The notes beneath the pieces were generated by a model. It saw only the letters and a program-made list of their open reading frames with translations. It did no database searches and was not told the origin of the DNA. 32,367 nucleotides of DNA, taken from an uncultured Candidatus Saccharibacteria bacterium (lineage in GTDB: Bacteria; Patescibacteriota; Minisyncoccia; Phycocordibacterales; UBA12079). This document shows positions 1,787-29,808 of the stretch, piece by piece. The number at the start of each line of letters is the position of its first letter. Position 1 is the stretch's first letter. The position numbers and the translations under genes are program-made. The stretch is from positions 1-32,367 of the forward strand of contig CAYUZR010000002.1 of the NCBI GenBank assembly GCA_964449555.1, written 5' to 3'.

Positions 1787-1990
1787 CTAAGCATCCCCTA
1801 CTTTTAAAACAGATTTAACTGATTCCTTATTTATCACAGGCAAAGTCCCTGGATGTGCCATACACACAGGACAAATGTTTATATTCGGTTTAGTTTCGTC
1901 TGGATCATTCTTCGAGTCACAAAACATCTTTGTGTTTGTCTTCAACTCAGCATGAATTTCCAATCCAATTGTAGGTTTGTATGTACCCAT
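1787..1990 (-). CDS. gatB: GatB N-terminal 67-aa fragment ending in an in-frame TAG
   Basis: MGTYKPTIGLEIHAELKTNTKMFC...CPVCMAHPGTLPVINKESV is the canonical GatB N-terminus. It is in the same frame as 572..1777. Confidence 0.9.
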   Translation of the reverse strand: MGTYKPTIGLEIHAELKTNTKMFCDSKNDPDETKPNINICPVCMAHPGTLPVINKESVKSVLKVGDA

Positions 1991-6321: not shown

Positions 6322-8287
6322 TCTCTTCTTTACTAACTACTAGAGTAGTTTTCACCACCGTATCTGGAATCAAAGAAATTGAATCAATTTTACAGCCAAC
6401 CAAGAATTTAACAAATTCAGGATAATCACTCGGTGCTTGCCCACAAATTCCAACTTTTGATTTTGCTTTTCGAGCTTTTTTAACAAGCTCTTCAACCATC
6501 TTCATAACAGCTGGATTATTTTCATTTGAAGTACCTTCAATTTCCAAAGTTCCAGAAGCATCTCTGTCAATTCCAAGAACCAACTGGGTTAAATCATTTG
6601 AACCTACTGAAAATCCATCAAACACTTTCGCGAATTCTTCGGCTAACAAAATATTTGAAGGAATTTCTGCCATTACATATACCTCCAATCCATCCTTACC
6701 TTTTTTAAGTCCGTTTTTAGCCATAATATCAATAACCTTCTTACCCTCCTCAACAGTTCGACAGAAAGGAACAAGAACTTTTAGGTTAGTTAGCCCCATT
6801 TCTTCACGAACTTTCTTCAAAGCTTCACATTCTAAATCGAAAGCAGGCCTGAACTCTTTTGAATAATAACGGCTCGCACCTCTCCAGCCAATCATTGGGT
6901 TTGACTCTTCTGGCTCATAGGCTTGTCCCCCAATCAAGTTTGCATATTCGTTAGTCTTAAAATCAGATAATCGAACGATTACTGGTTTCGGATAAAACGC
7001 AGCACAAATTCTACCAACACCCTCAGCTAATTCATTAACGAAGAATTCTTTTTTGTTTTTATAATCACCTGTTATCTTTTCAATTTTTCTTTTTGTTTTT
7101 TGATCTTGTTTATTGAAGTTAATCAAAGCAAGTGGGTGAATTCTAATTGTATTGTTGATAATAAATTCAAGCCGAGCCAAACCGACCCCATCATTGGGAA
7201 TAAATGAATTAGAAAAAGCTAAATCAGGCTCACCAATATTCATCATTATTTTTGTTTTAGATTTTTTTAACTTACCAATATTAGTCTTCTTAATTTCGAA
7301 ATCTAACAAACCTCTATGAACTTTTCCTTTTTCTCCTTCTGAACAATTAATTGTCACTTTATCTCCTGTTTTAATTTTATCTGAACCATTTTCCGTTCCA
7401 ACAATACAAGGAATTCCTAATTCACGAGAAACAATCGCAGCGTGACAAGTACGTCCACCTTTATCGGTTACAATTGCTGATGCAATCTTCATAATTGGCT
7501 CCCAATCCGGATCAGTCATGCTTGTTACTAACACCTCGCCTTTCTTAAACTGAAGAATATCACTTACATCCATTATTCGATTTACCTTTCCTGCTCCAAT
7601 TTTTTGCCCAACAGATTGCCCTTCTATTATTACACTTCCATTTTCCTTTAATTTATATTCTTCAATAAAATTAGCATCTTTTTGACTCTGAACAGTTTCT
7701 GGCCGTGCCTGAACGATATATAATTTTTTATCTTTACCATCTAAAGCCCATTCTATATCCATCGGTCGATTATAATGTTTTTCGATAACCATTCCCCACT
7801 CAGCCAATTTTTTCGCCTGTACATCAGTAATCGATTGTTTTTTTCTATATTTTTCATCAACAGGCACATCTTTTACCGGCTTACCAAAACCACTGTTGTA
7901 AATCATTTTTATATCTTTTTCAGCGACAGTTTTTGAAATAATTGCCCCTGTTGGTTTGAAATAATAAAATTCATCAGGAGTTACCTTCCCTTGCACAATA
8001 TTTTCACCCAGTCCATAAATAGAATTAATTAAAACAACATTTTCGAAGCCGGACTCCGTATCAATAGTAAACATAACACCCGAGCATCCTTTATCTGCAC
8101 GAACCATTTTTTGAACACCAACAGAAAGTGCAATATCAAAATGATCAAAACCTTTATCTTCACGATAAGAAATAGCTCGATTTGTAAATAAAGATGCAAT
8201 ACACTTTTTAACAGCAACCAACAAAACCTTTTCTCCTTTAATATTTAGATAAGTTTCCTGCTGACCTGCAAAAGAAGCATCTGGCAA
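6317..8287 (-). CDS. ppsA: phosphoenolpyruvate synthase (pyruvate, water dikinase), C-terminal 656-aa fragment
   Basis: PDASFAGQQETYLN, phospho-His domain GGRTCHAAIVSRELGIPC, PEP-utilizer TIM-barrel end GSNDLTQL...GICGQAPSD. The frame is continuous upstream through VAVRSSATAED to two TAA codons. Confidence 0.9.
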   Translation of the reverse strand: MPDASFAGQQETYLNIKGEKVLLVAVKKCIASLFTNRAISYREDKGFDHFDIALSVGVQKMVRADKGCSGVMFTIDTESGFENVVLINSIYGLGENIVQGKVTPDEFYYFKPTGAIISKTVAEKDIKMIYNSGFGKPVKDVPVDEKYRKKQSITDVQAKKLAEWGMVIEKHYNRPMDIEWALDGKDKKLYIVQARPETVQSQKDANFIEEYKLKENGSVIIEGQSVGQKIGAGKVNRIMDVSDILQFKKGEVLVTSMTDPDWEPIMKIASAIVTDKGGRTCHAAIVSRELGIPCIVGTENGSDKIKTGDKVTINCSEGEKGKVHRGLLDFEIKKTNIGKLKKSKTKIMMNIGEPDLAFSNSFIPNDGVGLARLEFIINNTIRIHPLALINFNKQDQKTKRKIEKITGDYKNKKEFFVNELAEGVGRICAAFYPKPVIVRLSDFKTNEYANLIGGQAYEPEESNPMIGWRGASRYYSKEFRPAFDLECEALKKVREEMGLTNLKVLVPFCRTVEEGKKVIDIMAKNGLKKGKDGLEVYVMAEIPSNILLAEEFAKVFDGFSVGSNDLTQLVLGIDRDASGTLEIEGTSNENNPAVMKMVEELVKKARKAKSKVGICGQAPSDYPEFVKFLVGCKIDSISLIPDTVVKTTLVVSKEEK

Positions 8288-8350
8288 GTCTTCAGCAGTA
8301 GCAGAAGAACGAACAGCAACATCTACATTTGTATCTTTTTAATTTTTAGA

Positions 8351-8689
8351 TTATTTTTTATAAGCTTCAACAATTTCCTCTCCTAAATGTTTCGGAAATT
8401 TTGCTCGCATAATAATCCTACGAACTTTCGCACCTCGAGTCATCAAGTTTCGAATATCGTGAGTATCTAAATCAGCTAAAACTTTTCGAATCTTTTCTTT
8501 CGCACCACTTTCTTCAAGAAATTCATTATAAGCATGTGAACTAGTAGCAAAACCATTCGGAATATTTACTCCTTTCTTGGTTAGTTTTTGATACATCTCA
8601 CCTAGAGAAGCATTTTTTCCCCCAACAAGAGGAACATCTTTGTTTGTTAGTTCATTGAACCAGAATACATTCTTTGTTTGTTTTGTCAT
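8351..8689 (-). CDS. ppsA: PEP synthase N-terminal 112-aa fragment
   Basis: FWFNELTNKDVPLVGGKNASLGEMYQKL..GVNIPNGFATS matches the PpsA N-terminus. Same frame as 6317..8287. Confidence 0.88.
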   Translation of the reverse strand: MTKQTKNVFWFNELTNKDVPLVGGKNASLGEMYQKLTKKGVNIPNGFATSSHAYNEFLEESGAKEKIRKVLADLDTHDIRNLMTRGAKVRRIIMRAKFPKHLGEEIVEAYKK

Positions 8690-10317: not shown

Positions 10318-10349
10318 AAAAAACCCCGAACAGATTACTCTGTTCGGGG
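10318..10349 (-). terminator. intrinsic terminator
   Basis: 10-bp GC-rich stem ccccgaacag (10324-10333) / ctgttcgggg (10340-10349) with a 6-nt loop, then six U on the minus strand (10318-10323). Confidence 0.9.
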
Positions 10350-10357
10350 AGTAACAA

Positions 10358-10630
10358 CTAAAGCTGTATCACCAAAACCGGTGTGTTAAGCATGGATGTC
10401 TCGAAATATGCATCCTCTGCAAATTCCTTACATCTTTTTAAAATCATACTAGCAGTTTCTCCTGTACATCGAGGAAGTCAATGTAACAGGCCAATCCCTC
10501 CAATCTCTTCAATAGGTAATTTGCTTGCTCCAATCTTTACCTTATTGTTTTTGTTTCTTTCTGTTTTTTGAGCAATTTCAGGAAGAGATTTGAGAAAACG
10601 ACATACTTTTTCTTTTTTTCCGCACGACAT
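10358..10630 (-). CDS. small Cys-rich hypothetical protein with one in-frame TGA (50 aa to the TGA at 10478-10480; 90 sense codons if decoded)
   Basis: GGAGGG (rc of 10638-10643) lies 7 nt before the ATG at 10630. MSCGKKEKVCRFLKSLPEIAQKTERNKNNKVKIGASKLPIEEIGGIGLLH-TGA-LPRCTGETASMILKRCKEFAEDAYFETSMLNTPVLVIQL-TAG. The terminator starts 9 nt after the TAG. Not in the ORF track. Confidence 0.55.
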
Positions 10631-10669
10631 TCTACTACCCTCCTTTTGTGTTAGTTTTTTGTTCTAAAC

Positions 10670-10861
10670 CTACCCTTCTCTTTCCCCGATAAGGAATAAC
10701 AATCCAAAAACAAGAACTAAACAAAGTACTGTTATTGCCATAAAACCATTATTAGTATCCTCGGGAGTCATAGGCGCAGAAAAAACATGAGATCCAATGC
10801 CTACAATTAAACAAAAAGCTAAAAACATTAAGATCTTTAGTATCAATTTAATGATCTTCAT
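10670..10861 (-). CDS. small membrane protein (63 aa, two hydrophobic helices)
   Basis: GGAGG lies 7 nt upstream of the ATG at 10861: MKIIKLILKILMFLAFCLIVGIGSHVF...ITVLCLVLVFGLLFLIGEREG. The track ORF 10670..10918 starts earlier at a site with no RBS. Confidence 0.6.
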   Translation of the reverse strand: MKIIKLILKILMFLAFCLIVGIGSHVFSAPMTPEDTNNGFMAITVLCLVLVFGLLFLIGEREG

Positions 10862-10927
10862 CAAAATACCTCCATTATTAGTGAAATTAAATTTAAATCT
10901 ACAAAAACAGTAACCCAAACATATAAA

Positions 10928-17236: not shown

Positions 17237-17716
17237 TTAAGTTGCCTGTTCAATATCTTTGCGAGTTGAAACAATCAATTCTGCATTTCGAAAATAGCAG
17301 TCTTCAGCTAACCAGAAAGTATAACGCATTGGCATACCTTCACGAAGAAGACGGGGTTCAGACACAAGATCTTCTGATAAACCAGCAAATTGTCCATCAG
17401 AACAAAGAGGATAACTCTCACGGCTTGGATCAAAATCGCCATAATGAAGAGAAAAACAAAAATCTATACCTGCGGAAGAAAGAATCTTGTTCAAAAATTT
17501 CATACCGCAATTATGACTAATGTCTCTGATTTCGTCAGAATTATATCCTTCACGCCCATCGACAAGAGTCACTCAAACACTTTTTGTTACTCCTTCAGAT
17601 TTTTCTAAAAGAAAAAGTAAGAGTTGTTTTGCTGATTTTGACCTCTCCTCACCACCTTTCCATTTGAAATTTAGGATGTTTTCTTTAATTTTTGCAATAA
17701 CTTTTTTCTTTTCCAT
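17237..17716 (-). CDS. hypothetical protein with one in-frame TGA (47 aa, TGA at 17573-17575, then 111 more codons)
   Basis: AAGGAG (rc of 17724-17729) lies 7 nt before the ATG at 17716. MEKKKVIAKIKENILNFKWKGGEERSKSAKQLLLFLLEKSEGVTKSV-TGA-VTLVDGREGYNSDEIRDISHNCGMKFLNKILSSAGIDFCFSLHYGDFDPSRESYPLCSDGQ... The track shows only 17237..17572, with GTG read as M. Confidence 0.6.
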
Positions 17717-19052: not shown

Positions 19053-21206
19053 CCAGATTTCTTGGATGTAATACTCACCCTGTTCTTTAAAATTTGGATC
19101 TAATTTTATAACCCCATTAATAGCCTCAACAGCTTTTTGCTTAAAACCAGCTTCTGAATATGTTGCTGCCAAAGATAATAAGGTTTGGGCATCACCCGGA
19201 TTATTTTCGACTCTCAATTCAGCTATTGAAATTGCTTTTTGATAATTATTTTTTGAAAGATATGCTTGAATAAGTCGGTCATCATCAACTAATATCGTAC
19301 CAAAACCTTCAATCAACAAGTCTTCTGCTTGTTGAATTTCATCAATTTTTATAAGAGAGGTTGCATAGCCAATTCTTAAACTATCAAATTGTGGAGCTAA
19401 CTCAAATGCTTTTTTTATATATTCGTTAGCAGTACCTAAATCACCTTTGAATGTATAAACACTTCCTGTTAATTCCAAAAGAGAAATTTTATTAGGAGAT
19501 AATTCCAATGCTCTATCTAAATGTATTGCCGAATTATCAAGATCACCAATTCTACCCAGAAAAGTTCCTGTTATTGACTCAATTCTTGCATTATTTGAAT
19601 CTTCTTCAATTTGTTTTTCAAGATTAATCAATATCAAGTTAGCCATTTCTTGTTGTGCTTGTGGATTTAAAGAAGGAAGATATTTTATTCCTGCCTGAGC
19701 AAATTGCTCTCTTGCTTCTTGCCTCCCAACAAAACCATAAGAAATTGCTTTTTCAAAATATTCAAAATTCTTTGTAGGACTATCCTTGTGAGACTTCAAT
19801 GCATTCAATAAATTAAGATTTGTTGCTATTGGTTTTGCATTAAAGAAATAAATAGAGAAAAGAGCAGTAATAATAACCACAGGTATAGCAATAGAGTTAA
19901 TGCCATCAGAAATCTTAACTGTAGAAACTGTTTCTTCATCCACATTTATACTATGAATATATCCAAGAAGTGAGAAAAATAAGATGTAGCTAATTAAATG
20001 GTCAAAAACAAATAAATTATGGACAAAATACCCTACCAATAAACCAATTATTATACCTTTATCCAAAGTATTAAAATAATTATTTTCATCCTTAATTAAA
20101 TAATAAATAATTATCAAAAACAAAGCCAAATACCCCAGTAAGCCGAGCAAGCCTCCAGCAATTAACCAATCAAAGAAAACATTATGTGTTCTGTCGAACC
20201 ACTGTTCTTGATCGTACATATCTGGATTGTAATATTTATTGAAAACATAATTAAAGTTTTCTTGACCCCATCCCAAAACAGGATTTTCTTTAAAACCCTC
20301 CCAGGCCATTCCCCAAACCATAAAACGAGATCGTGTAGTTTTTTCCTCTAAAGAAATATCAGCTAAACGATTCAAAACAGGATGTTTATTAACAAAAGAG
20401 GTTTCTCTCATACTTATAAATAGACCAACAAAAACAACCAAACCAACAAGACTTCCTATACAAATTTTTCTCAATTTTTTATTTTGTCTTTCAAAAATAG
20501 CAACAACTAAACCAACAGTAAACATTCCTGCTAAAAAACCTAAAATAGCACCCCTCGTTCCTGTGTTATAGAGAATAACTGTTTGTAGAATTATTGCTAA
20601 ACCATAAAGCCATTTCAACAAACTATTTCCTCTTTCTCTGACCATGAAAAATAATGTTATGAAGATATGAAATAGCATATACACAGCTAAATAAGCCGAA
20701 TTTCCCATAGTAGCATCAAGCCTATCGGTACTTTGATGAATTTGGAATTTCCCCGCCATTTGCATTAAACCATAAAATCCCATTAACACACTGGCAAAAA
20801 TAGATATATTAAAAAACCGATGCCATAATTTCTCTGTCTGTAACACAGATGCGGTAACAACAAAAAATCCAAATAAATGCAACAAAGTTATCCAACCTTC
20901 CATTCTTTCAAAATTAGACCAAATACTTTTTAATGGATTTTCTCCTAAAATATCAGCTAAACCAATTATCGCAATGAACACCGCCGACAAAATAGCTATC
21001 CAAGAAAATTTTAATCTATACTTTTCATCTCTTAAAGCAAGAACAGCCCAAAGACACACCATTACCTCAACTAAAATTCTAAAAGCAAAAACTTTTCCTG
21101 TAATGAAGGGAAAAAATAAATTATTAAAAACCAAAAATGATATAAACGGAATTAAAAATACAATTCCTAAAATAGTGTTTCTTAAAATGTTATCTAAATT
21201 TTTCAT
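19047..21206 (-). CDS. O-antigen-ligase/polymerase-like (Wzy_C-type) polytopic membrane protein with a C-terminal TPR domain
   Basis: About 12 hydrophobic helices, then an ~240-aa soluble tail with TPR-like repeats (..LDRALELSPNK.., ..IKKAFELAPQF.., ..VENNPGDAQT.., ..VIKLDPNF..). The ATG at 21206 (MKNLDNILRN) is preferred over the track's TTG at 21314. Confidence 0.75.
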   Translation of the reverse strand: MKNLDNILRNTILGIVFLIPFISFLVFNNLFFPFITGKVFAFRILVEVMVCLWAVLALRDEKYRLKFSWIAILSAVFIAIIGLADILGENPLKSIWSNFERMEGWITLLHLFGFFVVTASVLQTEKLWHRFFNISIFASVLMGFYGLMQMAGKFQIHQSTDRLDATMGNSAYLAVYMLFHIFITLFFMVRERGNSLLKWLYGLAIILQTVILYNTGTRGAILGFLAGMFTVGLVVAIFERQNKKLRKICIGSLVGLVVFVGLFISMRETSFVNKHPVLNRLADISLEEKTTRSRFMVWGMAWEGFKENPVLGWGQENFNYVFNKYYNPDMYDQEQWFDRTHNVFFDWLIAGGLLGLLGYLALFLIIIYYLIKDENNYFNTLDKGIIIGLLVGYFVHNLFVFDHLISYILFFSLLGYIHSINVDEETVSTVKISDGINSIAIPVVIITALFSIYFFNAKPIATNLNLLNALKSHKDSPTKNFEYFEKAISYGFVGRQEAREQFAQAGIKYLPSLNPQAQQEMANLILINLEKQIEEDSNNARIESITGTFLGRIGDLDNSAIHLDRALELSPNKISLLELTGSVYTFKGDLGTANEYIKKAFELAPQFDSLRIGYATSLIKIDEIQQAEDLLIEGFGTILVDDDRLIQAYLSKNNYQKAISIAELRVENNPGDAQTLLSLAATYSEAGFKQKAVEAINGVIKLDPNFKEQGEYYIQEIWK

Positions 21207-21209
21207 GAT

Positions 21210-21678
21210 ATAGATTATAACGGAAAACAAATAGAGTTGAAAGAGATTAGAAAAGAAAGATATATAAGAGCATTCAAGCTGGCTAAAAAAGCTTTTGGCG
21301 GTTATAAAAAACAAATTGTCATCCTTTTAGGTCTTGGATTTTTAGGAGGTTTACTAGAAAGCCTTGGTGTAAACGCCATTATACCCCCTATTCTCTTTTC
21401 TTGATGGAACTTATTTGAAATCTGACGACATAATAATTAGAGTAATAAGAACTTTATTTGAATTCCTCCACATTCCTTTTACACTAAAATTCCTACTTAT
21501 ATCAATAGCTTCATTATTTATATTCAAAGCAATTGCTATATTCTATTCAAAATATCTTACAGAAAAAATATATGCTTCTTATATAAGAGATACACAAATG
21601 AAACTTTTTCGAAAAACTTTGGAGGCCTCCTGGCCGTATCTTTCCAAACAAAAAATCAGTTTTAAAGAGATTATTAAT
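21210..21678 (+). pseudogene. remnant of a low-GC ABC exporter (N-terminal transmembrane part only): no ATG, frameshifted at a C5 run, truncated
   Basis: Frame 1 reads ..YKKQIVILLGLGFLGGLLESLGVNAIIPP..TGA (21402-21404). Shifting one base at ccccc (21384-21388) gives LFSFLDGTYLKSDDIIIRV...LFRKTLEASWPYLSKQKISFKEIIN. This parallels residues ~25-175 of the 21674..23509 product. Confidence 0.75.
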
Positions 21679-23509
21679 CGCGACTACTATACATGCGCGC
21701 GAAATATGTCCCCTTCTCTTTAAGAAGTTCATCCGGCGTACCGGATTCAACAACCCGACCATCTTCGAGTACATACAACATATCCATCTCACGGACTGTT
21801 GAGAGCTGATGTGCGATGACACACACGGTAACCTTTCCCTTCAGCTCTTGGATGGTACGCTGGATATGTTGCTCAGATTCTGTATCCAACGCACTTGTCG
21901 CCTCGTCGAGCAAGAGAAGCTGGGGCTTGCGCGCCAAAGCACGCGCGATGGCGATACGCTGACGCTGTCCTGCTGAAAGCATGACACCGCGCTCGCCCAC
22001 CTTTGTGTTAAACCCTTCTGGGAGCTTTTCGATCACATCGTAAATATGCGCCCTCTTTGCCGCTTTTACGACATCTTCGTCGGATACATTTTCATCGAAA
22101 AAGCGAATATTTTCGCGCACCGTGTCATTTATTAAAAAAATATCCTGCGATACATAAGCGATATTTTTACGCCATATATTGATATCAATATTACTCACAG
22201 GTACACCATCCAACACTAAAGCACCTTTGGTCGGCTCGAGAAGTCTCAAAACAATATCAAACAAAGTTGTTTTACCAGAACCTGAGGGACCAATGATCCC
22301 TACCATAGCACCGTATGGAATTGATAAATTAACACCATTCAAAACATCGCCACCTGTATCGTAGGAAAATCCAATATCCTTAAACGCAAGCTCACGCTCA
22401 AATTGAAACGGCTTTGAATACTTTTTCTCTTTTTTATGTCGAACTTCTCGGTGTTTCGACGCCTCCTCACCGTATCTCAATACATTAGATGCGTATGGAG
22501 CCGCATCATTCATATTAAAGAGAATGGTCTGCCCAGACTGTACAGACGCAAAAATACGCTGAACCAAATAAACAATGGCAGCAAGTGCACCAACACTGTA
22601 AGATGTTTCATAATACGCAAACGCAACCACGACCGCAACAAAAATGACGGTAATCGGCTGAATAAAAATTACGACCAATTTCCTCAGCATAAAAGTGCGT
22701 ATATGTAACGCGCGGAATATTGAAAAAAAACTAACACCGATATCAGTAATCTTATCTTCCAAACCCATCGCTTTTACAATCTTCACGCCACCAAGATATT
22801 CATTTACTAGATGCGCAATACGCTTATTCATCTCAGCGGTTTCGCGGGCAGCGACACGACCTTTAGAAAAAACCGGTTTAAACACCAAAAACATCAAGGC
22901 ACCGATTCCTAACGCAAGAAATGTAATTGTTTCTGATATGTTGAGTGCAACAAAAAGATAAATTGCGAGCCCGGAAGCAAACATAATCATTTTCACAAAC
23001 AAATCAAGTAATGCTGCGGTTTGTAGCACATTAATTTTTAAAAGTGTTTCCAGATTTCCCTGTCGCTGTTTTAGGAGATATGGCCAACTTGCATAAAGTG
23101 TTCGCTTAAAAAGACGGTTCATCAAGTCCTCTTGATATTTTGTCTTAAGATGTACCTGTATGTAGTAAAAGGCTAGCAACACCACTGCTTTCAAAGTAAA
23201 AAGTGTCACAATGAGGGCGAGGATCGCAGGTAAAGTAAGCTCAATTCCTGTAAATGAAAAAGTGTTTAAAATCGCCTGTGATATAAAATCGTCTCCGGAC
23301 TGCCCATTTCCGATGAACACAGAAAACAATGGGATAAGCGCACTAATACCAACTGCTTCAAGAATACCACTTAAAAATCCCAATACTAAAAATATAGCCA
23401 CATATCTCCGGTATCCGGCAATCAAGCGCAATATGAGTCTTGCAGCTCTCCCCACCTCACTAAATTTTAGACGTTGCATAGTTAACATATGTATATGTAT
23501 ATTATTCAC
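21674..23509 (-). CDS. ABC exporter, fused permease plus ATPase (MsbA/PglK-like type I exporter)
   Basis: Six-helix TMD, then GPSGSGKTT (Walker A), LSAGQRQRIAIARAL (signature), LLLLDEATSALD (Walker B), IAHQLST (H-loop). The start is uncertain: GTG at 23509, or ATG at 23488 or 23479. Confidence 0.92.
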   Translation of the reverse strand: MNNIHIHMLTMQRLKFSEVGRAARLILRLIAGYRRYVAIFLVLGFLSGILEAVGISALIPLFSVFIGNGQSGDDFISQAILNTFSFTGIELTLPAILALIVTLFTLKAVVLLAFYYIQVHLKTKYQEDLMNRLFKRTLYASWPYLLKQRQGNLETLLKINVLQTAALLDLFVKMIMFASGLAIYLFVALNISETITFLALGIGALMFLVFKPVFSKGRVAARETAEMNKRIAHLVNEYLGGVKIVKAMGLEDKITDIGVSFFSIFRALHIRTFMLRKLVVIFIQPITVIFVAVVVAFAYYETSYSVGALAAIVYLVQRIFASVQSGQTILFNMNDAAPYASNVLRYGEEASKHREVRHKKEKKYSKPFQFERELAFKDIGFSYDTGGDVLNGVNLSIPYGAMVGIIGPSGSGKTTLFDIVLRLLEPTKGALVLDGVPVSNIDINIWRKNIAYVSQDIFLINDTVRENIRFFDENVSDEDVVKAAKRAHIYDVIEKLPEGFNTKVGERGVMLSAGQRQRIAIARALARKPQLLLLDEATSALDTESEQHIQRTIQELKGKVTVCVIAHQLSTVREMDMLYVLEDGRVVESGTPDELLKEKGTYFARMYSSRD

Positions 23510-24323
23510 TCGGTAGAATCTTCAAGCTCCTAGTTATATGTTTATCCGAAGTATGGGCACCCAAAAAAAATTTAAGTGGTCGGATCAAACGCAAAAAATT
23601 ATCCTGCTTCCAGGCAGTATCGTAACTAATTGTATTGAGACGCGATGCGTCATGACGAACTCGACTCCCTCCCGCAATATGCGTCGACGAGGTCGCCGAA
23701 TTCCAGTCTGAAAACGGCGGGAGACCAAATCCTGACATAATCGCTTCGGAAATGCTCTCAGGTGCCGCGCAAAAATCTTTATAACAAAGAGTTGTGTATG
23801 GGATACCAATTTCACGAAGAGAGCGTGTAAAACGTCGTCGTTGCTGTGCCCAGCGCTTGAAGTTGAGCAGATCGCCGATTATCGGCGGGGCGACATCTGT
23901 TCTTCGCATTGAGTACGCCCACGCGCTCGGCTCTTTCATAAGGTACACCGCACGCACATCATACCCAGCAGCTAGAGCAACCTTAGACCCCACTTGAAAG
24001 CCCTCTATGGTTTTCGAAGCGTCTATGACAACACTATACTTCTTTAGCGCGGGAGAATGAAGTACATCATTATACCATCCTTCAAGATTATTAGCAGTAC
24101 GAGGAACCGATGACCAGAATGGACATCCACCGAGAGTTTGGCCACAAGTACACTCGCGCCCTTCTGTTGGGCGAAGTTCTTGACGAGGCATTTCACCTGC
24201 AACTTCGCCAAGCGCTACCGCCCCCGGATATCGCGAAAGGTATGCATTGAGCACAGTAGAGCCACTACGACCAAGGCCAATAATATACAAAAAAAGCTTT
24301 GGGTGTTTGTTTATTTTGTTCAT
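23502..24323 (-). CDS. sulfotransferase-family protein
   Basis: PAPS 5'-phosphosulfate-binding loop IIGLGRSGSTVL near the N-terminus. A later VYLMKEPSAWAYSMRR region sits where the 3'-phosphate-binding motif lies. This is the most GC-rich gene in the window. Confidence 0.7.
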   Translation of the reverse strand: MNKINKHPKLFLYIIGLGRSGSTVLNAYLSRYPGAVALGEVAGEMPRQELRPTEGRECTCGQTLGGCPFWSSVPRTANNLEGWYNDVLHSPALKKYSVVIDASKTIEGFQVGSKVALAAGYDVRAVYLMKEPSAWAYSMRRTDVAPPIIGDLLNFKRWAQQRRRFTRSLREIGIPYTTLCYKDFCAAPESISEAIMSGFGLPPFSDWNSATSSTHIAGGSRVRHDASRLNTISYDTAWKQDNFLRLIRPLKFFLGAHTSDKHITRSLKILPSE

Positions 24324-24341
24324 AATGTGATATTCATAGTA

Positions 24342-25514
24342 TCATTTTTTGTACTCTTTATTAAGTATCTTCTTATATATCTCGTATACCGCCTCATCGA
24401 ACGGCTGTTTATTTTCCATTGCACGACGGGCTTCTTTACTCATCATTTCTACCTTGTCGCGATGATCATAAAGATACTTAATCTTTTCCCCGAGCGACTT
24501 TGCATCACGGACAGGAACCACAAAACCGGTTTTGCCATCTTCGACGATACTCTGCGCATTCTCGGTAGTAACAATTGGTAAACCGCAAGCCATCGCTTCC
24601 ATAACCACCTTCGGATTTCCCTCTGCAAGTGAAGGCAAAGCAAACACTGATGCTTCTCTATAATGTTCTTCCGGTTGTGATGTGTTGCCGACCCATCGTA
24701 TACTCGAATTCTGAGCAATGCGCCTGATGTAACTCTGTTTAAGTTCCTCTGGCATTTCTCCATAACTACCAATAAGAACTAATTCCGCATTCTTTAGATT
24801 CAGTGATTCCCACGCGTCCAAAAGATAGTGCAGACCTTTGTGCAGTTTCGTATATGCGGCATATAGCACTCGAAATGGCTCTTCCTTGGAGCGCGGTTGC
24901 CTAGGTGGCGTAAATCGTTTTATATCAATATCCGTGTTAGCGACAAAAATCCGCTCTGCAGGATACCCCTGTGCAATATAAGAACGCTTCACAAAATCAG
25001 AAATAGCAATGACATAATCAAATTCATTGAGATGCCCACTTGTACGAGCATATTCGGCAAAGAAACCTTTGTATAGAGAGAAGCCAAGTAATCGTGATTC
25101 TTCTCTTTCTAAATCAGCACTGAATTGCATGTGCCCATTCCTTGTGATATCAACCGTAATGGAGCCGTTTTTTTGCGACTTTCGCAAAGTTCGCGGCAAA
25201 AAACGTCCGTCATGAAATAGAACTACATCGGTTTTTTGTAGCCGATATTGAGTGCAAAAATCAAAACGCTCTTCCCGCTGTCTTCGAGAGGGAAATGTAA
25301 GATTGAAAGCTTTCTCCACCCCCCTAAAGAAGTAATGAATAATGGTTGGTATGGCCTGTACGGTATTTTTAAAATAAAAATCCGTATTAGTCCTACAAAT
25401 AACCTGGGTCAATTCACCTGTTTTTGAAAAAACATTGATGACGGGCAAAATATTAGCTGTGGGATGACTTGTCTTCTTTCCCAAATCTGCGAATGTGATG
25501 ACGGAAATCGACAT
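24342..25514 (-). CDS. GT4-family glycosyltransferase (Glycos_transf_1), paralogue of 29795..30949
   Basis: LPSLAEGNPKVVMEAMACGLPIVTTENAQSIVEDGKTGFVV is the E-x7-E GT4 C-terminal motif. TGA stop. Confidence 0.88.
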   Translation of the reverse strand: MSISVITFADLGKKTSHPTANILPVINVFSKTGELTQVICRTNTDFYFKNTVQAIPTIIHYFFRGVEKAFNLTFPSRRQREERFDFCTQYRLQKTDVVLFHDGRFLPRTLRKSQKNGSITVDITRNGHMQFSADLEREESRLLGFSLYKGFFAEYARTSGHLNEFDYVIAISDFVKRSYIAQGYPAERIFVANTDIDIKRFTPPRQPRSKEEPFRVLYAAYTKLHKGLHYLLDAWESLNLKNAELVLIGSYGEMPEELKQSYIRRIAQNSSIRWVGNTSQPEEHYREASVFALPSLAEGNPKVVMEAMACGLPIVTTENAQSIVEDGKTGFVVPVRDAKSLGEKIKYLYDHRDKVEMMSKEARRAMENKQPFDEAVYEIYKKILNKEYKK

Positions 25515-25518
25515 ATAT

Positions 25519-27480
25519 TTATTTCTTTATAATAACCGCTATCGCATCTTTGCCTCGTATTGGATTAGTACTCTTCAAACTTTCAAAAAAGTGAATCTCT
25601 TTAATCTGCGTTTCAAGAATCTTTTTCTCTTCTGGGGTGGAAAGGGGAGATGACCATACACCGGTTGTCTTAAGATTTTTTAACAACTCAAGTGTTGTGG
25701 GTACATCTGAGCGTTCAAAACCCTCGGGCTGATATCGCAAATCTTCTATAAAGAAGAGTCCGCCTGAAGTAAGATGAGGAAACAAATAAGATAGAGTGAT
25801 CTGTTGATGTGGCGATGCATGAAGCGCGTCTTCTACCACAATATCAAGCTTTTTTTCTATATCTAATATTTTTTTAAGGTCATCGCGAGAACCCTGATCG
25901 CCTTGAACAATAAAAGATTTTTTATCTTTGGATTGTTTAAACGTACTAATATCAAATCCGATAATAGTAGCGTTCGGCAAATAATCACGCCACATGCGTA
26001 GCGATGGAGCCGTGGGATACAACTCTTCACTACTACCTCTACGATTACGATCCTGTTTTGAACTAATCTGAAATTTATCTCGCAATAATCCTATTTCACA
26101 TAATGTAAATTCTTCGGACCTTTTGTTTTTGAAAAAGTGGTCATAAACACGAATATAATTATGTTGACCTACACCTTTATCTGTTTTTACCTTATTTGCA
26201 AATCGCATTAAATCGTTAGCGCGATACAACTTCACCCAATAAGCACAATACTTCATAAAAGCAAGTGGATTCAACCCAATTTTAAATACTAAATCAAATA
26301 ACTTATATATTGAGTTCATATCATTTGTTGAATTTTTATGTAAATACTTTTTTTTGTATGCTTTTGCTATTAGCATCGAATATTTTTCAGCGGTTTTGCG
26401 AATGTCGAATTCTTCCGCTGTTTTTCTCGCGTTTTTGCTTATCTTTTCGTAGTCTGCATATACCATCTTTTCAAAACTTTCTACAACAGCATCTACAGAT
26501 GATTCCGGTATGAAAAAACCGTTTTCTCCGTCAACAAGCAATTCGTCTGTGCCAGCAGTTTTCGTCGAGACAAGCGGTAAACCTGACGCAAGTGCTTCAA
26601 GATAAGCAATACTCAACCCTTCAATATCAGACGTGGACACAAAAATATCGCTCATTTTATAGAACTTTTCGATATCACGACGTAGACCAAAGAGTATTAC
26701 CACACCATCAAGCCCCAATTCTCGAACACGCGCCTCAAGCTTTTTGCGCATTCCCCCCTCGCCTGCTACCGCCAACTTATATTCCGGATGCTTCTTATGA
26801 AAACGCGCAAAGCCCTCAAGCATAAGCATATGATTTTTCTTAGGCTTCAGCCCCGCCACGTTTAAGAGCACCTTGTCAGACGTCTTGAATCCAAGTTCCT
26901 GTTTAAGCGTATCTTTTGACGGTAAAGCCGCGATCGCGGATTGTATTTTTTCTATATCGACACCGTTTTTAATCACTACAAATTTATTTTTTGGTATGCG
27001 TTCCTGCTTGATAGTAAAGTCAGCGACCGTATTTGAAACAGCAATGATACGGTACGACAATCGCGCCAACCATCTATCAAGAGTTATTTTCGCCCACGTT
27101 TTATCAACATAAGTGTTGTGCTCAATAGGTATAACCACATAACCCATAAATAACTTGAGTATCCTCACGATGGTATTACTAAAGAAAAGATTGGGCATCA
27201 CAACATCTGGTTTAATAGACCGCAGCGTCTTATAAAACTCCACCCAACTTGAAATATCTTTGAAACCATGAAAGTTTAGTTTATACACCGGAAGCCACGA
27301 TGGCAATTCATCATACAGTACTACTTTACCTGGAATCTGAGAGAGTGTGATAAACGAAAGATCAATGGTATTTTTATCTAACAGAGGCATCAACTCTGTC
27401 AATTGTTTCTCCGCACCACCAACACAAAAGTTATCTATAACAATTGCGACTTTTATTTTTTGTGAATTAATTATTTTCAT
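25519..27480 (-). CDS. bifunctional fusion: GT4 glycosyltransferase (aa 1-387) plus SAM-dependent methyltransferase-like domain (aa 388-653)
   Basis: N-terminal part: VSTSDIEGLSIAYLEALASGLPLVSTKTAGTDELLVDGENGFF. C-terminal part begins at the internal ATG at 26319 (MNSIYKLF) and is colinear with the 30953..31732 product (APSLRMWR.YLP, GDQ.SR.DL, DDALHASPHQQITLS.LFPH..SGG.FFIEDLR). Confidence 0.85.
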   Translation of the reverse strand: MKIINSQKIKVAIVIDNFCVGGAEKQLTELMPLLDKNTIDLSFITLSQIPGKVVLYDELPSWLPVYKLNFHGFKDISSWVEFYKTLRSIKPDVVMPNLFFSNTIVRILKLFMGYVVIPIEHNTYVDKTWAKITLDRWLARLSYRIIAVSNTVADFTIKQERIPKNKFVVIKNGVDIEKIQSAIAALPSKDTLKQELGFKTSDKVLLNVAGLKPKKNHMLMLEGFARFHKKHPEYKLAVAGEGGMRKKLEARVRELGLDGVVILFGLRRDIEKFYKMSDIFVSTSDIEGLSIAYLEALASGLPLVSTKTAGTDELLVDGENGFFIPESSVDAVVESFEKMVYADYEKISKNARKTAEEFDIRKTAEKYSMLIAKAYKKKYLHKNSTNDMNSIYKLFDLVFKIGLNPLAFMKYCAYWVKLYRANDLMRFANKVKTDKGVGQHNYIRVYDHFFKNKRSEEFTLCEIGLLRDKFQISSKQDRNRRGSSEELYPTAPSLRMWRDYLPNATIIGFDISTFKQSKDKKSFIVQGDQGSRDDLKKILDIEKKLDIVVEDALHASPHQQITLSYLFPHLTSGGLFFIEDLRYQPEGFERSDVPTTLELLKNLKTTGVWSSPLSTPEEKKILETQIKEIHFFESLKSTNPIRGKDAIAVIIKK

Positions 27481-28094
27481 TTTTCTAGGAATACATAATA
27501 ACCACTTGTCTGTTTAGACTCTAACTTGCCTGACAATATATCAAGTATATTACCACATTTTTTAAAGACAGTGTATCTTCCAAGAGGCCTCAACTTAAAC
27601 CACGTGGCAATAGCCCGTCTTACTTTGATTATCTCACATTTAGCAAACGGCTTTGAGAGCCAACGCAATCCATCTTCGGTAAATCTCCAAAAGTCACCAT
27701 AATAACCTTTTTCTGCATGATAATAATATAGAAAAGGAACATATATGAAAGCGTAACCTCCCGGCCTCAGCACACGATATATTTCCTTATAGGCTTTAAT
27801 AGGGTTCTCCACGTGTTCTAATACAGCCATACAAATAATGGCGTCGATGGAATTATCATCAAACGGCATATTATGAACATCTCCAACTATATCCGGATGA
27901 TAAGTGTCTACCGGATCCATTATTTTATAATCAACCTTTTCAACATAAGACCTCAACCATTCTCTCGACGAATCGTATCTATTATTCTTATCCTTCATCA
28001 AGCGCAGTCCGCCTCCGATATCAATAACCTCTTTTTTTTCTTTAAAGATTCTAGTTACCCTCTCGTTAAAAAATTTTTGCCAAGGTGTATTCAT
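27477..28094 (-). CDS. class I SAM-dependent methyltransferase (Methyltransf_11-like)
   Basis: VIDIGGG, IDAIICMAVLEHVENP, LRPGGYAFIYVP. ATGA start/stop overlaps at both ends. Confidence 0.85.
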   Translation of the reverse strand: MNTPWQKFFNERVTRIFKEKKEVIDIGGGLRLMKDKNNRYDSSREWLRSYVEKVDYKIMDPVDTYHPDIVGDVHNMPFDDNSIDAIICMAVLEHVENPIKAYKEIYRVLRPGGYAFIYVPFLYYYHAEKGYYGDFWRFTEDGLRWLSKPFAKCEIIKVRRAIATWFKLRPLGRYTVFKKCGNILDILSGKLESKQTSGYYVFLEK

Positions 28095-29146
28095 ATAAAT
28101 GCAATTATATCATCTGCTCTTCTCTCCCAAGTAAATTCTCTTACTCGCTGGGTAGCCTTAGTGGCTTTGATTTGAGCCTCATCATACCTTTCTAACACTT
28201 CAGAAATCCTTTTGGTTACATCATTTGAATTATTCGGATCAAATAGGTATGCGGTAGATTCATCCAAAACCTCTCGTATTGACGGCAAATCTGTGGACAC
28301 TATTGGATTTCCACTCGCCATATATTCAAACATTTTAAGTGGCGACATATATTTGGTATAGTGTTTTGTGTTCGGATAATTCATCACAAGAATATCAACA
28401 GCTTTCATATAGACAGGCACCTCACAGGGTTTAGCTTTAGAGACTATTAAAAGTTCCACTTCTGGATGTCTTTTCTTAACATCACTAATCACTTTATCCA
28501 ATTCCCCAACTCCCTTCTCTTCTCCCATCGTCTTGAGTTTACCAACATACGCAATAATTTTTTTATTTAGGGGAAGATCGAGCCTCTTTCGCAGTTGTTC
28601 CTTTGAATTTTTTATACTTTCAAATACATTCAAATCCACCCCGCTCGGTGCGACCATTATTTTTTCTTTAGAAACGCCGAAAGATAGGTAATATTCTTTC
28701 AATCCGTTGCTAATAACCACAAGCTTATTCAATCTCTTAAGCAATCCCGCCACAACCCATTTCTTCTTCGCTGTATGTGATTCCCATACAATATTTTTTT
28801 TAAAAAAACTTAAGTAAGAAAGAGAGAGTTCATCCCGACCATAGATGATATCCACCTTCTTGAATAATACATAAAAAAAGGCAGACACCGCAAAAGAGAG
28901 TGCCTGAACCAAAAATCCAATTTTACCAAACCGAACAAAGTCCAATGTCGGCAACTTGGTGATTTTAAAGCACTCTTCCATTCCATAATGCTGAAAAGGA
29001 CTTTCCTTCGAGACATTGTACCTGCGGGGCACCACAAGCTCCACAACGTTACCGTGCAAGACAAAAGCCTCGCACATCTTCATCGTTGCAAGCCCGTGTG
29101 CTTTACCGGTTGGGATGCGAATATTGGCGAGATAATACATTTTCAT
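28091..29146 (-). CDS. GT4-family glycosyltransferase
   Basis: GT-B layout with KYMSPLKMFEYMASGNPIVSTDLPSIREVLDESTAYLF (E-x7-E-like). ATGA overlaps. Confidence 0.8.
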   Translation of the reverse strand: MKMYYLANIRIPTGKAHGLATMKMCEAFVLHGNVVELVVPRRYNVSKESPFQHYGMEECFKITKLPTLDFVRFGKIGFLVQALSFAVSAFFYVLFKKVDIIYGRDELSLSYLSFFKKNIVWESHTAKKKWVVAGLLKRLNKLVVISNGLKEYYLSFGVSKEKIMVAPSGVDLNVFESIKNSKEQLRKRLDLPLNKKIIAYVGKLKTMGEEKGVGELDKVISDVKKRHPEVELLIVSKAKPCEVPVYMKAVDILVMNYPNTKHYTKYMSPLKMFEYMASGNPIVSTDLPSIREVLDESTAYLFDPNNSNDVTKRISEVLERYDEAQIKATKATQRVREFTWERRADDIIAFI

Positions 29147-29808
29147 AATTGTTTTTTGATACGTTCATGCACTATAATAGCATTTTCTGTAAGTGATTTT
29201 GTGCCGTCTATCTTTATTGTTGAAATACCTTTTGTGGCAAGTGCCAAAAGAATATCCTGTTGAGTTTGCTGGGACCGACTCTGTGACTCCTGAAGTCCAC
29301 CTACTCTACGACCCGGCTCTCGCTTTTTCATTCTGGCGATAGACTCTTCTACCGGCGTGTCCACAAAAACTAATAATGACTCCTTAGGAAGTCTATTATA
29401 AATAAGATCTATTACAGCCGTCTTGCTAAGAATGTTTCTTATTGCAAGATTAGAAAGTCTTTGAATATATCCCGCATCCCATAATACTATAATGTTGTTT
29501 TGATGGGTAGTTTGATATTGAAGTTTTTGATGCTCATGTAGTCGTGTAATTAGTTTTTCAAGACTTGAACCTTTTGCGCGTGATAGTTTATATAGCAATA
29601 CAGCGATCGAAAAATCAAGATATTGCGGGCGTAACAACATCCAAAAAAGTTTATATTTCCAGGTTCTATTTTCTGGAAAAAAGTTTTCCCTTGTAGCACA
29701 AGGCAAATATTCTCTTTCAAACATTTTCCTCACTTCTTCTACCAGGGTAGTCTTTCCTGAGCCCGGTATACCTATAAATTCTATATACATAACATTAATG
29801 AGAGCCAT
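29143..29808 (-). CDS. P-loop NTPase, nucleoside/nucleotide-kinase-like small-molecule kinase candidate
   Basis: FIGIPGSGKTTLVEEV (Walker A), LWDAGY, LLVFVDTPVEESIARMKKR (dNK/TMPK-like layout). The alternative start ATG at 29790 (MYIEFIG) avoids overlap with the upstream gene. Confidence 0.6.
   Translation of the reverse strand: MALINVMYIEFIGIPGSGKTTLVEEVRKMFEREYLPCATRENFFPENRTWKYKLFWMLLRPQYLDFSIAVLLYKLSRAKGSSLEKLITRLHEHQKLQYQTTHQNNIIVLWDAGYIQRLSNLAIRNILSKTAVIDLIYNRLPKESLLVFVDTPVEESIARMKKREPGRRVGGLQESQSRSQQTQQDILLALATKGISTIKIDGTKSLTENAIIVHERIKKQL

What the first reader, a model, noticed from the sequence alone, without database searches (positions are those of the whole stretch)
10358..10630. 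Small SD-driven gene with an in-frame TGA; the terminator follows the second stop, not the TGA
A near-perfect SD (GGAGGG, 7-nt spacer) precedes the ATG at 10630. The frame reads 50 codons, then TGA (10478-10480), then 39 more sense codons to TAG (10358-10360). The strong intrinsic terminator (10318-10349) begins 9 nt after that TAG.

The segment is visibly GC-richer than its surroundings. The product would be Cys-rich (C3, C10, then TGA-LPRC..KRC), with the TGA four residues before a Cys.

The options are as follows:
- Selenocysteine.
- Programmed or leaky readthrough, for example Trp.
- A 50-aa peptide with a 120-nt structured 3' UTR.
- A recently inactivated gene.

A second gene with the same layout lies at 17237..17716.
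Basis: partly seen in the sequence, partly recalled or inferred. Interest (0 to 1): 0.66.

Follow-up and report, generated by a model that had tools for sequence, protein, structure and literature searches.

The report
Real small gene interrupted by TGA
A roughly 90-codon gene of an uncultured ultra-small (CPR) bacterium carries a genuine in-frame TGA inside a selected RNA hairpin, so it is an interrupted real gene and not a 50-residue peptide; sequence alone cannot say whether the second half is made by restart, by recoding, or not at all.

Summary
SD, ATG 10630, 50 codons, TGA 10480-10478, 39 codons, TAG and a terminator are all present. The TGA is identical in nine other metagenome contigs, so it is not a sequencing error. 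The genome uses the standard code: long genes contain no in-frame TGA and five end in TGA.

An exhaustive HMMER search found one intact, syntenic 92-aa homologue that spans both halves. The 39 downstream codons therefore belong to the same protein, and the "50-aa peptide plus structured 3' UTR" reading is refuted.

Selenocysteine is not supported for this gene:
- The homologue has Asn, not Cys, at the TGA column.
- No SECIS-like hairpin follows the TGA.
- No Sec genes or tRNA-Sec appear in about 47 kb of this genome.
- No Sec use in this phylum is reported in the papers searched.

The TGA sits in the 5' arm of a strongly selected, lineage-specific hairpin. Its 3' arm overlaps an AGGAG 11 nt before an in-frame ATG. 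My ranking is termination with coupled restart (about 0.4), UGA recoding (about 0.25) and plain nonsense pseudogene (about 0.25).

The second gene (17237-17716) is more provocative. Its TGA replaces a Cys found in 30 of 31 homologous loci and is followed by a selected hairpin.

The parts
10638..10643 (-). Shine-Dalgarno GGAGGG of gene 1, with a 7-nt spacer to the ATG
   Evidence: Read directly from the sequence. Only 7 of 43 annotated starts in this organism have such a 5-mer SD, with spacers of 5-10 nt.
10481..10630 (-). Gene 1, part A: ATG plus 49 codons (the 50-aa product called by gene finders, P0001)
   Evidence: Codon score is 0.256. Residues 12-41 align to P0028.
10478..10480 (-). In-frame TGA (codon 51), followed by C
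   Evidence: Identical in 9 other contigs. P0028 has AAT (Asn) at the aligned column. The five natural TGA stops are all followed by A or T.
10461..10490 (-). Local RNA hairpin CCUGU-U-ACAUUGA / CUUCC / UCGAUGU-ACAGG. The UGA lies at the top of the 5' arm, and the 3' arm covers the AGG of the downstream AGGAG.
   Evidence: MFE is -13.5 kcal/mol. None of 1000 synonymous recodings is as stable (z -4.6). Only 2.3% of codons in core genes lie in such a hairpin. It is absent at the homologous place in L053.
10459..10463 (-). SD-like AGGAG, 11 nt upstream of the in-frame ATG of codon 62
   Evidence: Read from the sequence. Only 3 of 103 internal in-frame ATGs have a 5-mer SD upstream. The GGA codon is an insertion relative to P0028.
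10445..10447 (-). In-frame ATG (Met62), the candidate restart codon for a 29-residue C-terminal peptide
   Evidence: Read from the sequence. P0028 has AAA (Lys) here.
10361..10477 (-). Gene 1, part B: 39 sense codons after the TGA, the best-conserved part of the protein
   Evidence: Codon score is 0.298 in this frame. It is 55% identical to P0028, and 13 of the 21 identical residues use different codons.
10358..10360 (-). TAG, the end of the full frame
10318..10349 (-). Intrinsic terminator (11-bp stem, 4-nt loop, T-run)
   Evidence: It is conserved in relative L010 (8797-8831), and an equivalent terminator follows the intact homologue in L053.
17237..17716 (-). Second TGA-interrupted gene (47 codons, TGA 17575-17573, 111 codons). 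GTG follows the TGA directly, and a hairpin spans 17572-17513.

Best explanation
Gene 1 is a real gene of about 90 codons. It belongs to a tiny orphan family of Paceibacteria-type CPR bacteria and sits in a variable slot between a PIF1-type helicase and a MOFRL-family gene.

In this clonal population its frame is broken at codon 51 by a genuine UGA stop. I think the interruption is managed and is not simple decay:
- Ribosomes translate the first 50 codons and terminate at the UGA.
- In doing so they melt the hairpin that holds the UGA in its 5' arm and part of an AGGAG in its 3' arm.
- The freed AGGAG and the in-frame AUG 30 nt downstream (Met62) then allow a coupled restart.
- The conserved C-terminal module is made as a separate 29-residue peptide.

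Shown:
- the TGA is real
- the genome uses the standard code
- the downstream codons are homologous coding sequence
- the hairpin is far more stable than coding constraints require
- the SD-like element and the ATG are present

Inferred:
- the restart actually happens
- the two peptides are functional
For: - **Real TGA, fixed in the population:**
- **Standard code:** no in-frame TGA in 23 long genes, and five of them end in TGA.
- **Single-polypeptide syntenic homologue:** P0028/L053.
- **Long-term purifying selection downstream:** 13 synonymous differences among 21 conserved residues.
- **Hairpin containing the UGA:** -13.5 kcal/mol against -4.9 +/- 1.9 for synonymous recodings, 0 of 1000 as stable. 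The empirical background is 2.3%. The hairpin is lineage-specific.
- **AGGAG plus in-frame ATG just downstream:** only 3 of 103 internal ATGs have such an SD. Both the extra GGA codon and the ATG are differences from the only known homologue, P0028.
- **No other lesion in the gene:**
Against: - The 11-nt spacer is just outside the 5-10 nt seen at real starts in this organism.
- Most genes here use no SD at all.
- The SD, ATG and hairpin features were noticed after the fact.
- Only one homologue exists, so what is lineage-specific rests on one comparison.
- Function for a small protein split into 50-aa and 29-aa pieces is unproven.
- The AF2 model of the fused protein is poor (pLDDT 54).
- A selected hairpin could serve some other purpose.
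- The model does not explain why both reproducible in-frame stops on the contig are TGA.
- It does not explain why the other one replaces a conserved Cys.
Confidence: 0.4

Rival explanations
1. UGA recoding gives the full-length 90-aa protein. The inserted residue would be selenocysteine, Cys from a SelB-type or suppressor system, or Trp/Cys from leaky near-cognate reading at the weak UGA-C context.
For: - The homologue is one polypeptide.
- The two in-frame stops reproduced in other assemblies are both TGA.
- The in-frame TGAs are followed by C and G, whereas the five natural TGA stops are followed by A or T.
- In the same genome, gene 2 has TGA at a Cys conserved in 30 of 31 loci. A selected hairpin starts 3 nt after it (z -3.7 against synonymous recodings, 0 of 1000) and is absent in the Cys homologues.
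- A Cys lies four residues after the gene-1 TGA.
Against: - P0028 has Asn, not Cys, at the gene-1 column.
- No hairpin follows the gene-1 UGA (z +1.0; z +0.9). The UGA is inside a hairpin that must be melted during decoding.
- No Rfam SECIS match appears even at E<=10.
- No Sec genes or tRNA-Sec appear in about 47 kb of this genome.
- The papers searched hold no report of Sec in Patescibacteria or Parcubacteria.
- This reading leaves the AGGAG-ATG arrangement unexplained.
Confidence: 0.25
2. Plain nonsense allele. This would be a recently inactivated, dispensable accessory gene, and only the 50-aa stub is made.
For: - This is the simplest reading.
- The gene is an orphan in a variable slot and is absent from the closest genome, L010, which has other ORFs there.
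- An intact homologue exists elsewhere.
- Nonsense and frameshift alleles occur in related material: GAG to TAG in L018/L019 and a 2-nt deletion in L050.
- The population is clonal (at least 99.9% identity), so a deleterious allele could be fixed.
Against: - The stop lies in a hairpin that none of 1000 synonymous recodings matches. Only 2.3% of codons lie in such a hairpin.
- The second TGA gene likewise has a selected hairpin (1.7% background). The joint chance is about 4e-4.
- No second lesion occurs in either gene.
- Both stops are TGA. From one search's count for gene 2 (20 of 74 possible nonsense changes give TGA), and assuming the same share for gene 1, I estimate about 7% for both being TGA if nonsense mutations were random.
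Confidence: 0.25
3. A 50-aa peptide gene with a structured, non-coding 120-nt 3' UTR.
For: - Gene finders call only the 50-aa ORF.
- The 171 nt from the UGA through the terminator fold well (z -3.6). Much of that energy comes from the terminator.
Against: - The downstream frame is 55% identical to the C-terminal half of the intact 92-aa P0028, with many synonymous differences.
- The coding score of that frame is 0.298, and only 0.3% of off-frame windows reach it.
Confidence: 0.02
4. Alternative genetic code (table 4 or 25), sequencing error, programmed frameshift or ribosomal bypass.
For: - CPR lineages with UGA=Gly exist. This is from my own knowledge and was not tested here.
- The stop-in-hairpin layout loosely recalls the phage T4 gene 60 take-off site. 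This is also from memory.
Against: - No in-frame TGA occurs in about 9,500 codons of 23 genes, and five genes end in TGA.
- The TGA is identical in nine other contigs.
- Homology continues in the zero frame directly after the TGA (L52, T56, E58), so there is no shift or hop.
Confidence: 0.02

Closest known systems
Bacterial selenoprotein genes (in-frame UGA plus a downstream SECIS hairpin read by SelB, as in E. coli fdhF)
   Same: - Both genes have a population-fixed in-frame UGA in an otherwise intact frame.
- In gene 2 the UGA replaces a conserved Cys and is followed at +3 nt by a selected 60-nt hairpin whose apical loop lies about 30 nt from the UGA.
   Different: - Gene 1 has no downstream hairpin, its UGA is inside a stem, and its homologue has Asn at that column.
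- The apical loop of gene 2's hairpin (UAUAAU) lacks the G(U) that I recall as typical of bacterial SECIS.
- No Rfam SECIS match, no Sec machinery seen, and no report of Sec use in this phylum in the papers searched.
Translational coupling through an RBS-masking hairpin, or termination-reinitiation (classical in RNA phage MS2 and many operons; from my own knowledge)
   Same: - The stop codon of the upstream frame lies in a hairpin whose other arm covers part of an SD-like AGGAG.
- An AUG lies 11 nt beyond the AGGAG.
- In gene 2 a GUG follows the UGA directly and forms the base of a hairpin.
   Different: - Here the two cistrons are halves of what is one protein in the homologue, so this would be a secondarily split gene.
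- The spacer is longer than at real starts.
- There is no expression evidence.
UGA-to-Cys recoding by a non-canonical tRNA-Cys with SelB (Vargas-Rodriguez et al. 2018, listed in the references of PMC8762117; not read)
   Same: It would explain a UGA at a conserved Cys followed by a hairpin without any selenium metabolism.
   Different: - I know it only from other bacterial lineages.
- No such tRNA or SelB was seen here.
- It cannot be tested with the sequence in hand.
Nonsense pseudogene
   Same: There is a premature stop relative to an intact syntenic homologue.
   Different: - There is no further decay.
- The stop is embedded in a selected, lineage-specific RNA structure.
- A second gene on the same contig shows the same combination.

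Membership tests
Bacterial selenoprotein gene | In-frame UGA that is genuine and reproducible | tested here: met
   Identical in 9 other contigs from several samples and assemblers.
Bacterial selenoprotein gene | Homologues carry Cys (or Sec) at the aligned position | tested here: not met
   The only homologue, P0028, has Asn (AAT) there, in a poorly conserved loop. For gene 2 the feature is met: 30 of 31 loci have TGT or TGC.
Bacterial selenoprotein gene | SECIS: a stable hairpin beginning shortly after the UGA, with the apical loop about 16-37 nt downstream and a G in the loop (criteria recalled from bSECISearch) | tested here: not met
   - Gene 1: the 66 nt from the UGA fold at -6.6 kcal/mol, z +1.0 and +0.9.
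- Gene 1: the only strong hairpin contains the UGA itself.
- No Rfam SECIS match at E<=10.
- Gene 2: position and stability fit, but the loop lacks a G, so that case is inconclusive.
Bacterial selenoprotein gene | selA, selB, selC (tRNA-Sec) and selD present in the genome | not testable with these tools
   - Only about 47 kb of this genome could be reached: the window plus the L047, L055 and L002 extensions.
- None of these genes and no tRNA-Sec is present in it.
Alternative genetic code with UGA as sense (tables 4, 25) | UGA frequent inside conserved genes and never used as a stop | tested here: not met
   No in-frame TGA in 23 long genes, and five end in TGA. MOFRL ends at the same residue as its orthologue in L010.
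Split gene with translational coupling or reinitiation | Start codon with a ribosome-binding signal close downstream of the stop | tested here: met
   AGGAG at 10463-10459, an 11-nt spacer, and an in-frame ATG at 10447-10445, 30 nt after the TGA. The background is 3 of 103 internal ATGs. The spacer is slightly longer than the 5-10 nt at real starts.
Split gene with translational coupling or reinitiation | RNA structure that masks the downstream start signal and is opened by translation of the upstream frame | tested here: met
   The predicted hairpin at 10490-10461 pairs the AGG of the AGGAG with codons 47-48 and holds the UGA in its 5' arm. None of 1000 synonymous recodings is as stable. This is a prediction only.
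Split gene with translational coupling or reinitiation | Downstream product is actually made | not testable with these tools
   This needs ribosome profiling, proteomics or reporters.
Nonsense pseudogene | Premature stop relative to intact homologues | tested here: met
   P0028/L053 is uninterrupted at the same locus.
Nonsense pseudogene | Further degenerative lesions, or intact alleles segregating in the population | tested here: not met
   There is no other stop or frameshift in 89 codons, and every contig found carries the TGA. The population is clonal, so this test is weak.
Programmed frameshift (prfB-like) or translational bypass | Homology resumes in another frame, or after a gap | tested here: not met
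   Zero-frame homology continues from the codon after the TGA.

The most novel reading that the evidence does not exclude
This Paceibacteria-type CPR lineage decodes specific UGA codons through a hairpin-dependent, SelB-like mechanism, inserting either selenocysteine or cysteine. Gene 2 would be a true recoded protein, since its UGA replaces a Cys present in 30 of 31 homologous loci and is followed by a selected hairpin. Gene 1 would be a second, atypical target. As far as the literature I could search shows, this would be the first selenoprotein or UGA-recoding system in the Candidate Phyla Radiation outside the code-25 lineages.
Probability: 0.2. Interest if true: 0.8.

Novelty: new member of a known kind. 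Interest (0 to 1): 0.5.

Why it matters
- **Annotation.** Gene callers report a 50-aa protein here, and 47-aa plus 111-aa proteins for the second gene. In each case the real unit is one interrupted gene, so these database entries are fragments.
- **Biology.** Two population-fixed in-frame UGAs on one 32-kb contig each coincide with a lineage-specific RNA hairpin that synonymous recoding never reproduces. That is not what random nonsense mutations look like.
- **If the explanation is coupled restart.** These would be examples of small genes being split and kept in a streamlined genome.
- **If the explanation is recoding.** It would extend selenocysteine or UGA-to-Cys decoding to a phylum where I found no report of it. 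This would be notable for organisms with very reduced biosynthetic capacity.
- **Testability.** The complete genome and any metaproteome or metatranscriptome from the same samples would settle the question.

Tried and rejected
1. **Alternative code.** Rejected by the whole-window TGA census.
2. **Sequencing error.** Rejected, because nine other contigs are identical.
3. **Pfam, NCBIfam, PHROGs, PADLOC and PDB sequence searches** of the 90-aa product, P0028 and gene-2 homologues found nothing.
4. **The word-indexed homology search** found only the self 50-aa call. Pattern-based scans of GTDB genomes and metagenomes with the 90-aa query found nothing. Only the exhaustive HMMER search found P0028. 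A profile of the two sequences found no further members.
5. **The closest genome, L010,** lacks the gene and has other ORFs in the slot. Only the terminator is conserved.
6. **A genome-wide burden of in-frame stops of all three kinds** (gatB TAG, ppsA 2x TAA). Rejected as an explanation, because those stops exist only in the window's own assembly. Five other contigs read TTG at the gatB site, and two read TTA and TAT at the ppsA sites.
7. **P0027 as a second TGA-bearing gene-2 homologue.** False alarm: it has TGT, and the caller missed a non-ATG start.
8. **Double-glycine RiPP leader (…EEIGG).** Dropped, because the homologue lacks the GG and no maturase is nearby.
9. **Thioredoxin-like [2Fe-2S] ferredoxin idea** from the C…C…CxxxC spacing. 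No family match, and the Cys residues are not conserved.
10. **prfB-type frameshift or gene-60-type bypass.** Rejected because zero-frame homology continues.
11. **AF2 on the fused gene-1 product** was too poor to use (pLDDT 54).
12. **Fold search of the confident gene-2 model** found no relative (TM about 0.2).
13. **Literature.** No Sec in Patescibacteria or Parcubacteria. PMC5424206 concerns SepRS/SepCysS only, and the 'selD' hit in PMC11608272 was the word 'seldom'.
14. **Genome walking for Sec genes** reached only about 15 kb beyond the window. Look-ups with the gatB and ppsA fragments found nothing on record.

Full report
**1. The observation**

- SD GGAGGG at 10643-10638, with a 7-nt spacer.
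- ATG at 10630, followed by 50 codons.
- TGA at 10480-10478, followed by 39 sense codons.
- TAG at 10360-10358.
- An 11-bp intrinsic terminator at 10349-10324 with a T-run.

The product read through the TGA is MSCGKKEKVCRFLKSLPEIAQKTERNKNNKVKIGASKLPIEEIGGIGLLH*LPRCTGETASMILKRCKEFAEDAYFETSMLNTPVLVIQL.

The segment is only modestly GC-richer than its surroundings, at 0.35 and 0.39 against 0.33 for coding sequence.

**2. The TGA is neither a code change nor an error**

- Across 23 long genes (about 9,500 codons, all on the minus strand) there is no in-frame TGA, and five genes end in TGA. TGA is therefore a stop in this organism.
- The 50-aa product is called on at least nine other contigs from JGI, ENA and Logan assemblies of several samples. 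Their DNA is 100% identical across the gene, TGA included.
- All overlapping contigs are at least 99.9% identical to the window, apart from the ppsA deletion and scaffold gap in L056/L058 noted under Other observations. This is one clonal population, so the TGA is real, but there is no within-population variation to analyse.

**3. What organism and what locus**

- The window encodes GatB, Obg, enolase, PpsA, MOFRL, a PIF1-type helicase, SecA, MurB and a glycosyltransferase island.
- The nearest GTDB genome is a Patescibacteria (CPR) MAG, with the helicase 88% and MOFRL 72% identical.
- In that relative, the slot between the helicase and MOFRL holds different ORFs. Only the terminator is conserved.
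- Gene 1, together with a 63-aa membrane ORF upstream of it, is therefore accessory cargo in a variable slot.

**4. The downstream 39 codons are coding and belong to the same protein**

- A codon-usage model trained on the contig's own genes scores the pre-TGA segment at 0.256 and the post-TGA segment at 0.298 per codon, in the same frame.
- Off-frame windows average -0.26, and only 0.3% of them reach 0.298.
- Word-indexed and pattern-based searches found no relative.
- The exhaustive HMMER search of 1.84 billion representatives found P0028. It is 92 aa and 47% identical (E 2.7e-9), and it aligns to residues 11-90 as one uninterrupted polypeptide.
- Its 617-nt contig is syntenic: the 92-aa gene with a strong SD, then a terminator, then the start of a MOFRL gene (MPIIKNIETLATSKL).
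- Downstream of the TGA, 55% of residues are identical to P0028, against 38% upstream. Thirteen of the 21 identical residues use different codons. This shows long-term purifying selection on that frame.

This refutes the "50-aa peptide plus structured UTR" option. It also refutes my interim idea that the second half is an unrelated small ORF.

**5. Selenocysteine for gene 1**

The evidence is against it:
- The homologue has Asn (AAT) at the TGA column, in a poorly conserved loop. Of the four Cys residues only C67 is conserved.
- The 66 nt from the UGA fold no better than shuffles (z +1.0) or synonymous recodings (z +0.9).
- Rfam finds no SECIS even at E<=10.
- No tRNA, and no selA, selB or selD, occurs in the window or in the roughly 15 kb of additional sequence from this organism that I could reach.
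- The searchable literature holds no report of Sec in Patescibacteria or Parcubacteria. The Parcubacteria papers that mention Sec deal with SepRS/SepCysS.

Only about 47 kb of the genome was visible, so the absence of Sec machinery is not established.

**6. What surrounds the TGA**

- The UGA lies at the top of the 5' arm of a 12-bp hairpin at 10490-10461: CCUGU-U-ACAUUGA / CUUCC / UCGAUGU-ACAGG, at -13.5 kcal/mol.
- None of 1,000 synonymous recodings of the same peptide, drawn from this genome's codon usage, is as stable (mean -4.9, sd 1.9, z -4.6).
- Only 2.3% of codons in the core genes lie in such a hairpin.
- The homologous stretch of L053 has no such hairpin.
- The 3' arm ends in ACAGG, which overlaps an AGGAG at 10463-10459. 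Eleven nt further on lies an in-frame ATG (Met62, 10447-10445).
- Only 3 of 103 internal in-frame ATGs on the contig have a 5-mer SD upstream.
- Relative to P0028, the GGA that creates the AGGAG is an inserted codon, and the ATG replaces AAA.
- This organism uses SD at only 7 of 43 starts, with spacers of 5-10 nt. The 11-nt spacer is therefore borderline.

This architecture is what RBS-masking translational coupling looks like. Ribosomes reaching the UGA open the hairpin and expose the restart signal. A downstream recoding signal would look different, because this hairpin must already be melted when the UGA is decoded.

**7. The second gene**

The frame at 17716-17237 has 47 codons, a TGA at 17575-17573, and then 111 codons. 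Gene callers split it into 47-aa and 111-aa products.
- It has about 25 full-length protein homologues of roughly 174 aa from Parcubacteria/Minisyncoccia MAGs. In these, the TGA column is a nearly invariant Cys (…KEVCLTLV…).
- In 31 homologous DNA loci the codon is TGT or TGC in 30 and TCA in one. None has TGA.
- Only 1 of the 74 possible nonsense substitutions in the gene, or 1 of the 20 that yield TGA, would hit that codon.
- A 60-nt hairpin starts 3 nt after the UGA, at -19.1 kcal/mol. Its z-score is -3.4 against shuffles and -3.7 against synonymous recodings, with 0 of 1000 as stable. Flanking control windows are not significant.
- Only 1.7% of codons are followed by such a window. The Cys homologues average z of about +0.4.
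- An AF2 model from the family alignment is confident (pLDDT 89) and forms a single domain across the TGA. It has no PDB fold relative.

This is the classical Sec/Cys-plus-hairpin pattern. Three things count against a simple Sec reading:
- The apical loop lacks the G that I recall as typical of bacterial SECIS.
- No Rfam SECIS matches.
- A GTG follows the TGA directly and forms the base of the hairpin, so restart is again possible.

**8. A false trail worth recording**

The window also shows a TAG in gatB and two TAA codons in ppsA. That first suggested a general burden of nonsense codons. These stops are confined to the window's own assembly.
- Five other contigs read TTG (Leu) in gatB.
- Two other contigs read TTA and TAT in ppsA.
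- Gene calls on those contigs give intact proteins: GatB of 472 aa on three of them and PpsA of 790 aa on L054.

The in-frame stops reproduced in other assemblies are therefore the two TGAs. The five natural TGA stops are followed by A or T, while the in-frame TGAs are followed by C and G.

**9. Weighing the explanations**

- **Plain nonsense pseudogene.** This is the simplest reading, and the gene is dispensable cargo. It leaves both hairpins unexplained (joint chance about 4e-4), as well as the TGA-only pattern and the Cys hit in gene 2.
- **Sec or Cys recoding.** This explains gene 2 well. It fits gene 1 poorly and requires machinery that has neither been seen nor reported for the phylum.
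- **Termination plus coupled restart.** This explains the gene-1 hairpin, the AGGAG and the ATG, and it can accommodate the UGA-GUG of gene 2. It does not explain the Cys coincidence, and it assumes that the split products are useful.

For gene 1 my ranking is:

| Explanation | Confidence |
|---|---|
| Termination with coupled restart | about 0.4 |
| UGA recoding of some kind | about 0.25 |
| Plain pseudogene | about 0.25 |
| Other | remainder |

For gene 2 alone I would put recoding near 0.4-0.5.

**10. Novelty**

As the evidence stands, gene 1 is an interrupted member of a tiny orphan family, which is a known kind of thing. The non-excluded novel reading is hairpin-dependent UGA recoding in a CPR bacterium. 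That would be new for the phylum, and the complete genome and proteomic data could test it directly.

Noticed in passing
window 17237-17716 (minus strand); TGA 17575-17573; hairpin 17572-17513: In the second TGA-interrupted gene, the TGA replaces a Cys present in 30 of 31 homologous loci (the other has Ser). A 60-nt hairpin follows at +3 nt, and none of 1000 synonymous recodings matches its stability. The Cys homologues lack it. A GTG directly follows the TGA. The family gives a confident AF2 single-domain model with no Pfam family or PDB fold relative. This is the strongest hint of UGA recoding on the contig.
   Followed up: yes
window 1787-1789 (gatB TAG); 8351-8353 and 8339-8341 (ppsA TAA x2); also 1794, 1822, 8334, 8098, 8086: In-frame stops in gatB and ppsA exist only in the window's own assembly. 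Five other contigs read TTG in gatB, and two read TTA and TAT in ppsA; gene calls there show intact GatB (472 aa, three contigs) and PpsA (790 aa, L054). The differences form tight clusters and are mostly T to A on the coding strand. They are either local assembly errors or a rare strain.
   Followed up: yes
L002 6205-9407, compared with window below 8696: On contig L002 the MOFRL gene is followed by ribosomal protein genes (L6, L18, S5, L15, SecY-like) and not by ppsA. This is either a rearrangement between strains or a chimeric join.
   Followed up: no
window 10351-10927, compared with L010 7651-8796: The slot between the PIF1-type helicase and the terminator before MOFRL carries entirely different cargo in the closest genome (a 244-aa ORF and an ORF of about 100 aa). 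The terminator itself is conserved. The slot looks like a small hot spot for accessory genes.
   Followed up: partly
L018 and L019 (gene-2 homologues), 4 codons after the conserved Cys: A close relative of L016 carries GAG to TAG in this gene family, on two contigs. Nonsense alleles therefore do occur in the family elsewhere.
   Followed up: partly
window 28370-28371 compared with L050; window 6617-6656 compared with L056/L058: There are strain-level lesions in other assemblies. A 2-nt deletion splits a glycosyltransferase into 267-aa and 85-aa products. L056 and L058 have a 21-nt deletion plus several substitutions in ppsA.
   Followed up: no
43 annotated starts on L001, L002, L047 and L054: Only 7 of 43 starts have an AGGAG or GGAGG Shine-Dalgarno, and these are mostly small accessory ORFs. 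Core genes (ribosomal proteins, SecA, enolase, MOFRL, helicase) have A/T-rich leaders with no SD.
   Followed up: partly
window 21000-32367: A GC-richer region (0.36-0.44 against about 0.32) holds glycosyltransferases, methyltransferases and an ABC transporter. It contains four of the five TGA-terminated genes and is probably a horizontally acquired cell-surface glycan island. L047 extends it by about 9 kb of similar genes.
   Followed up: no
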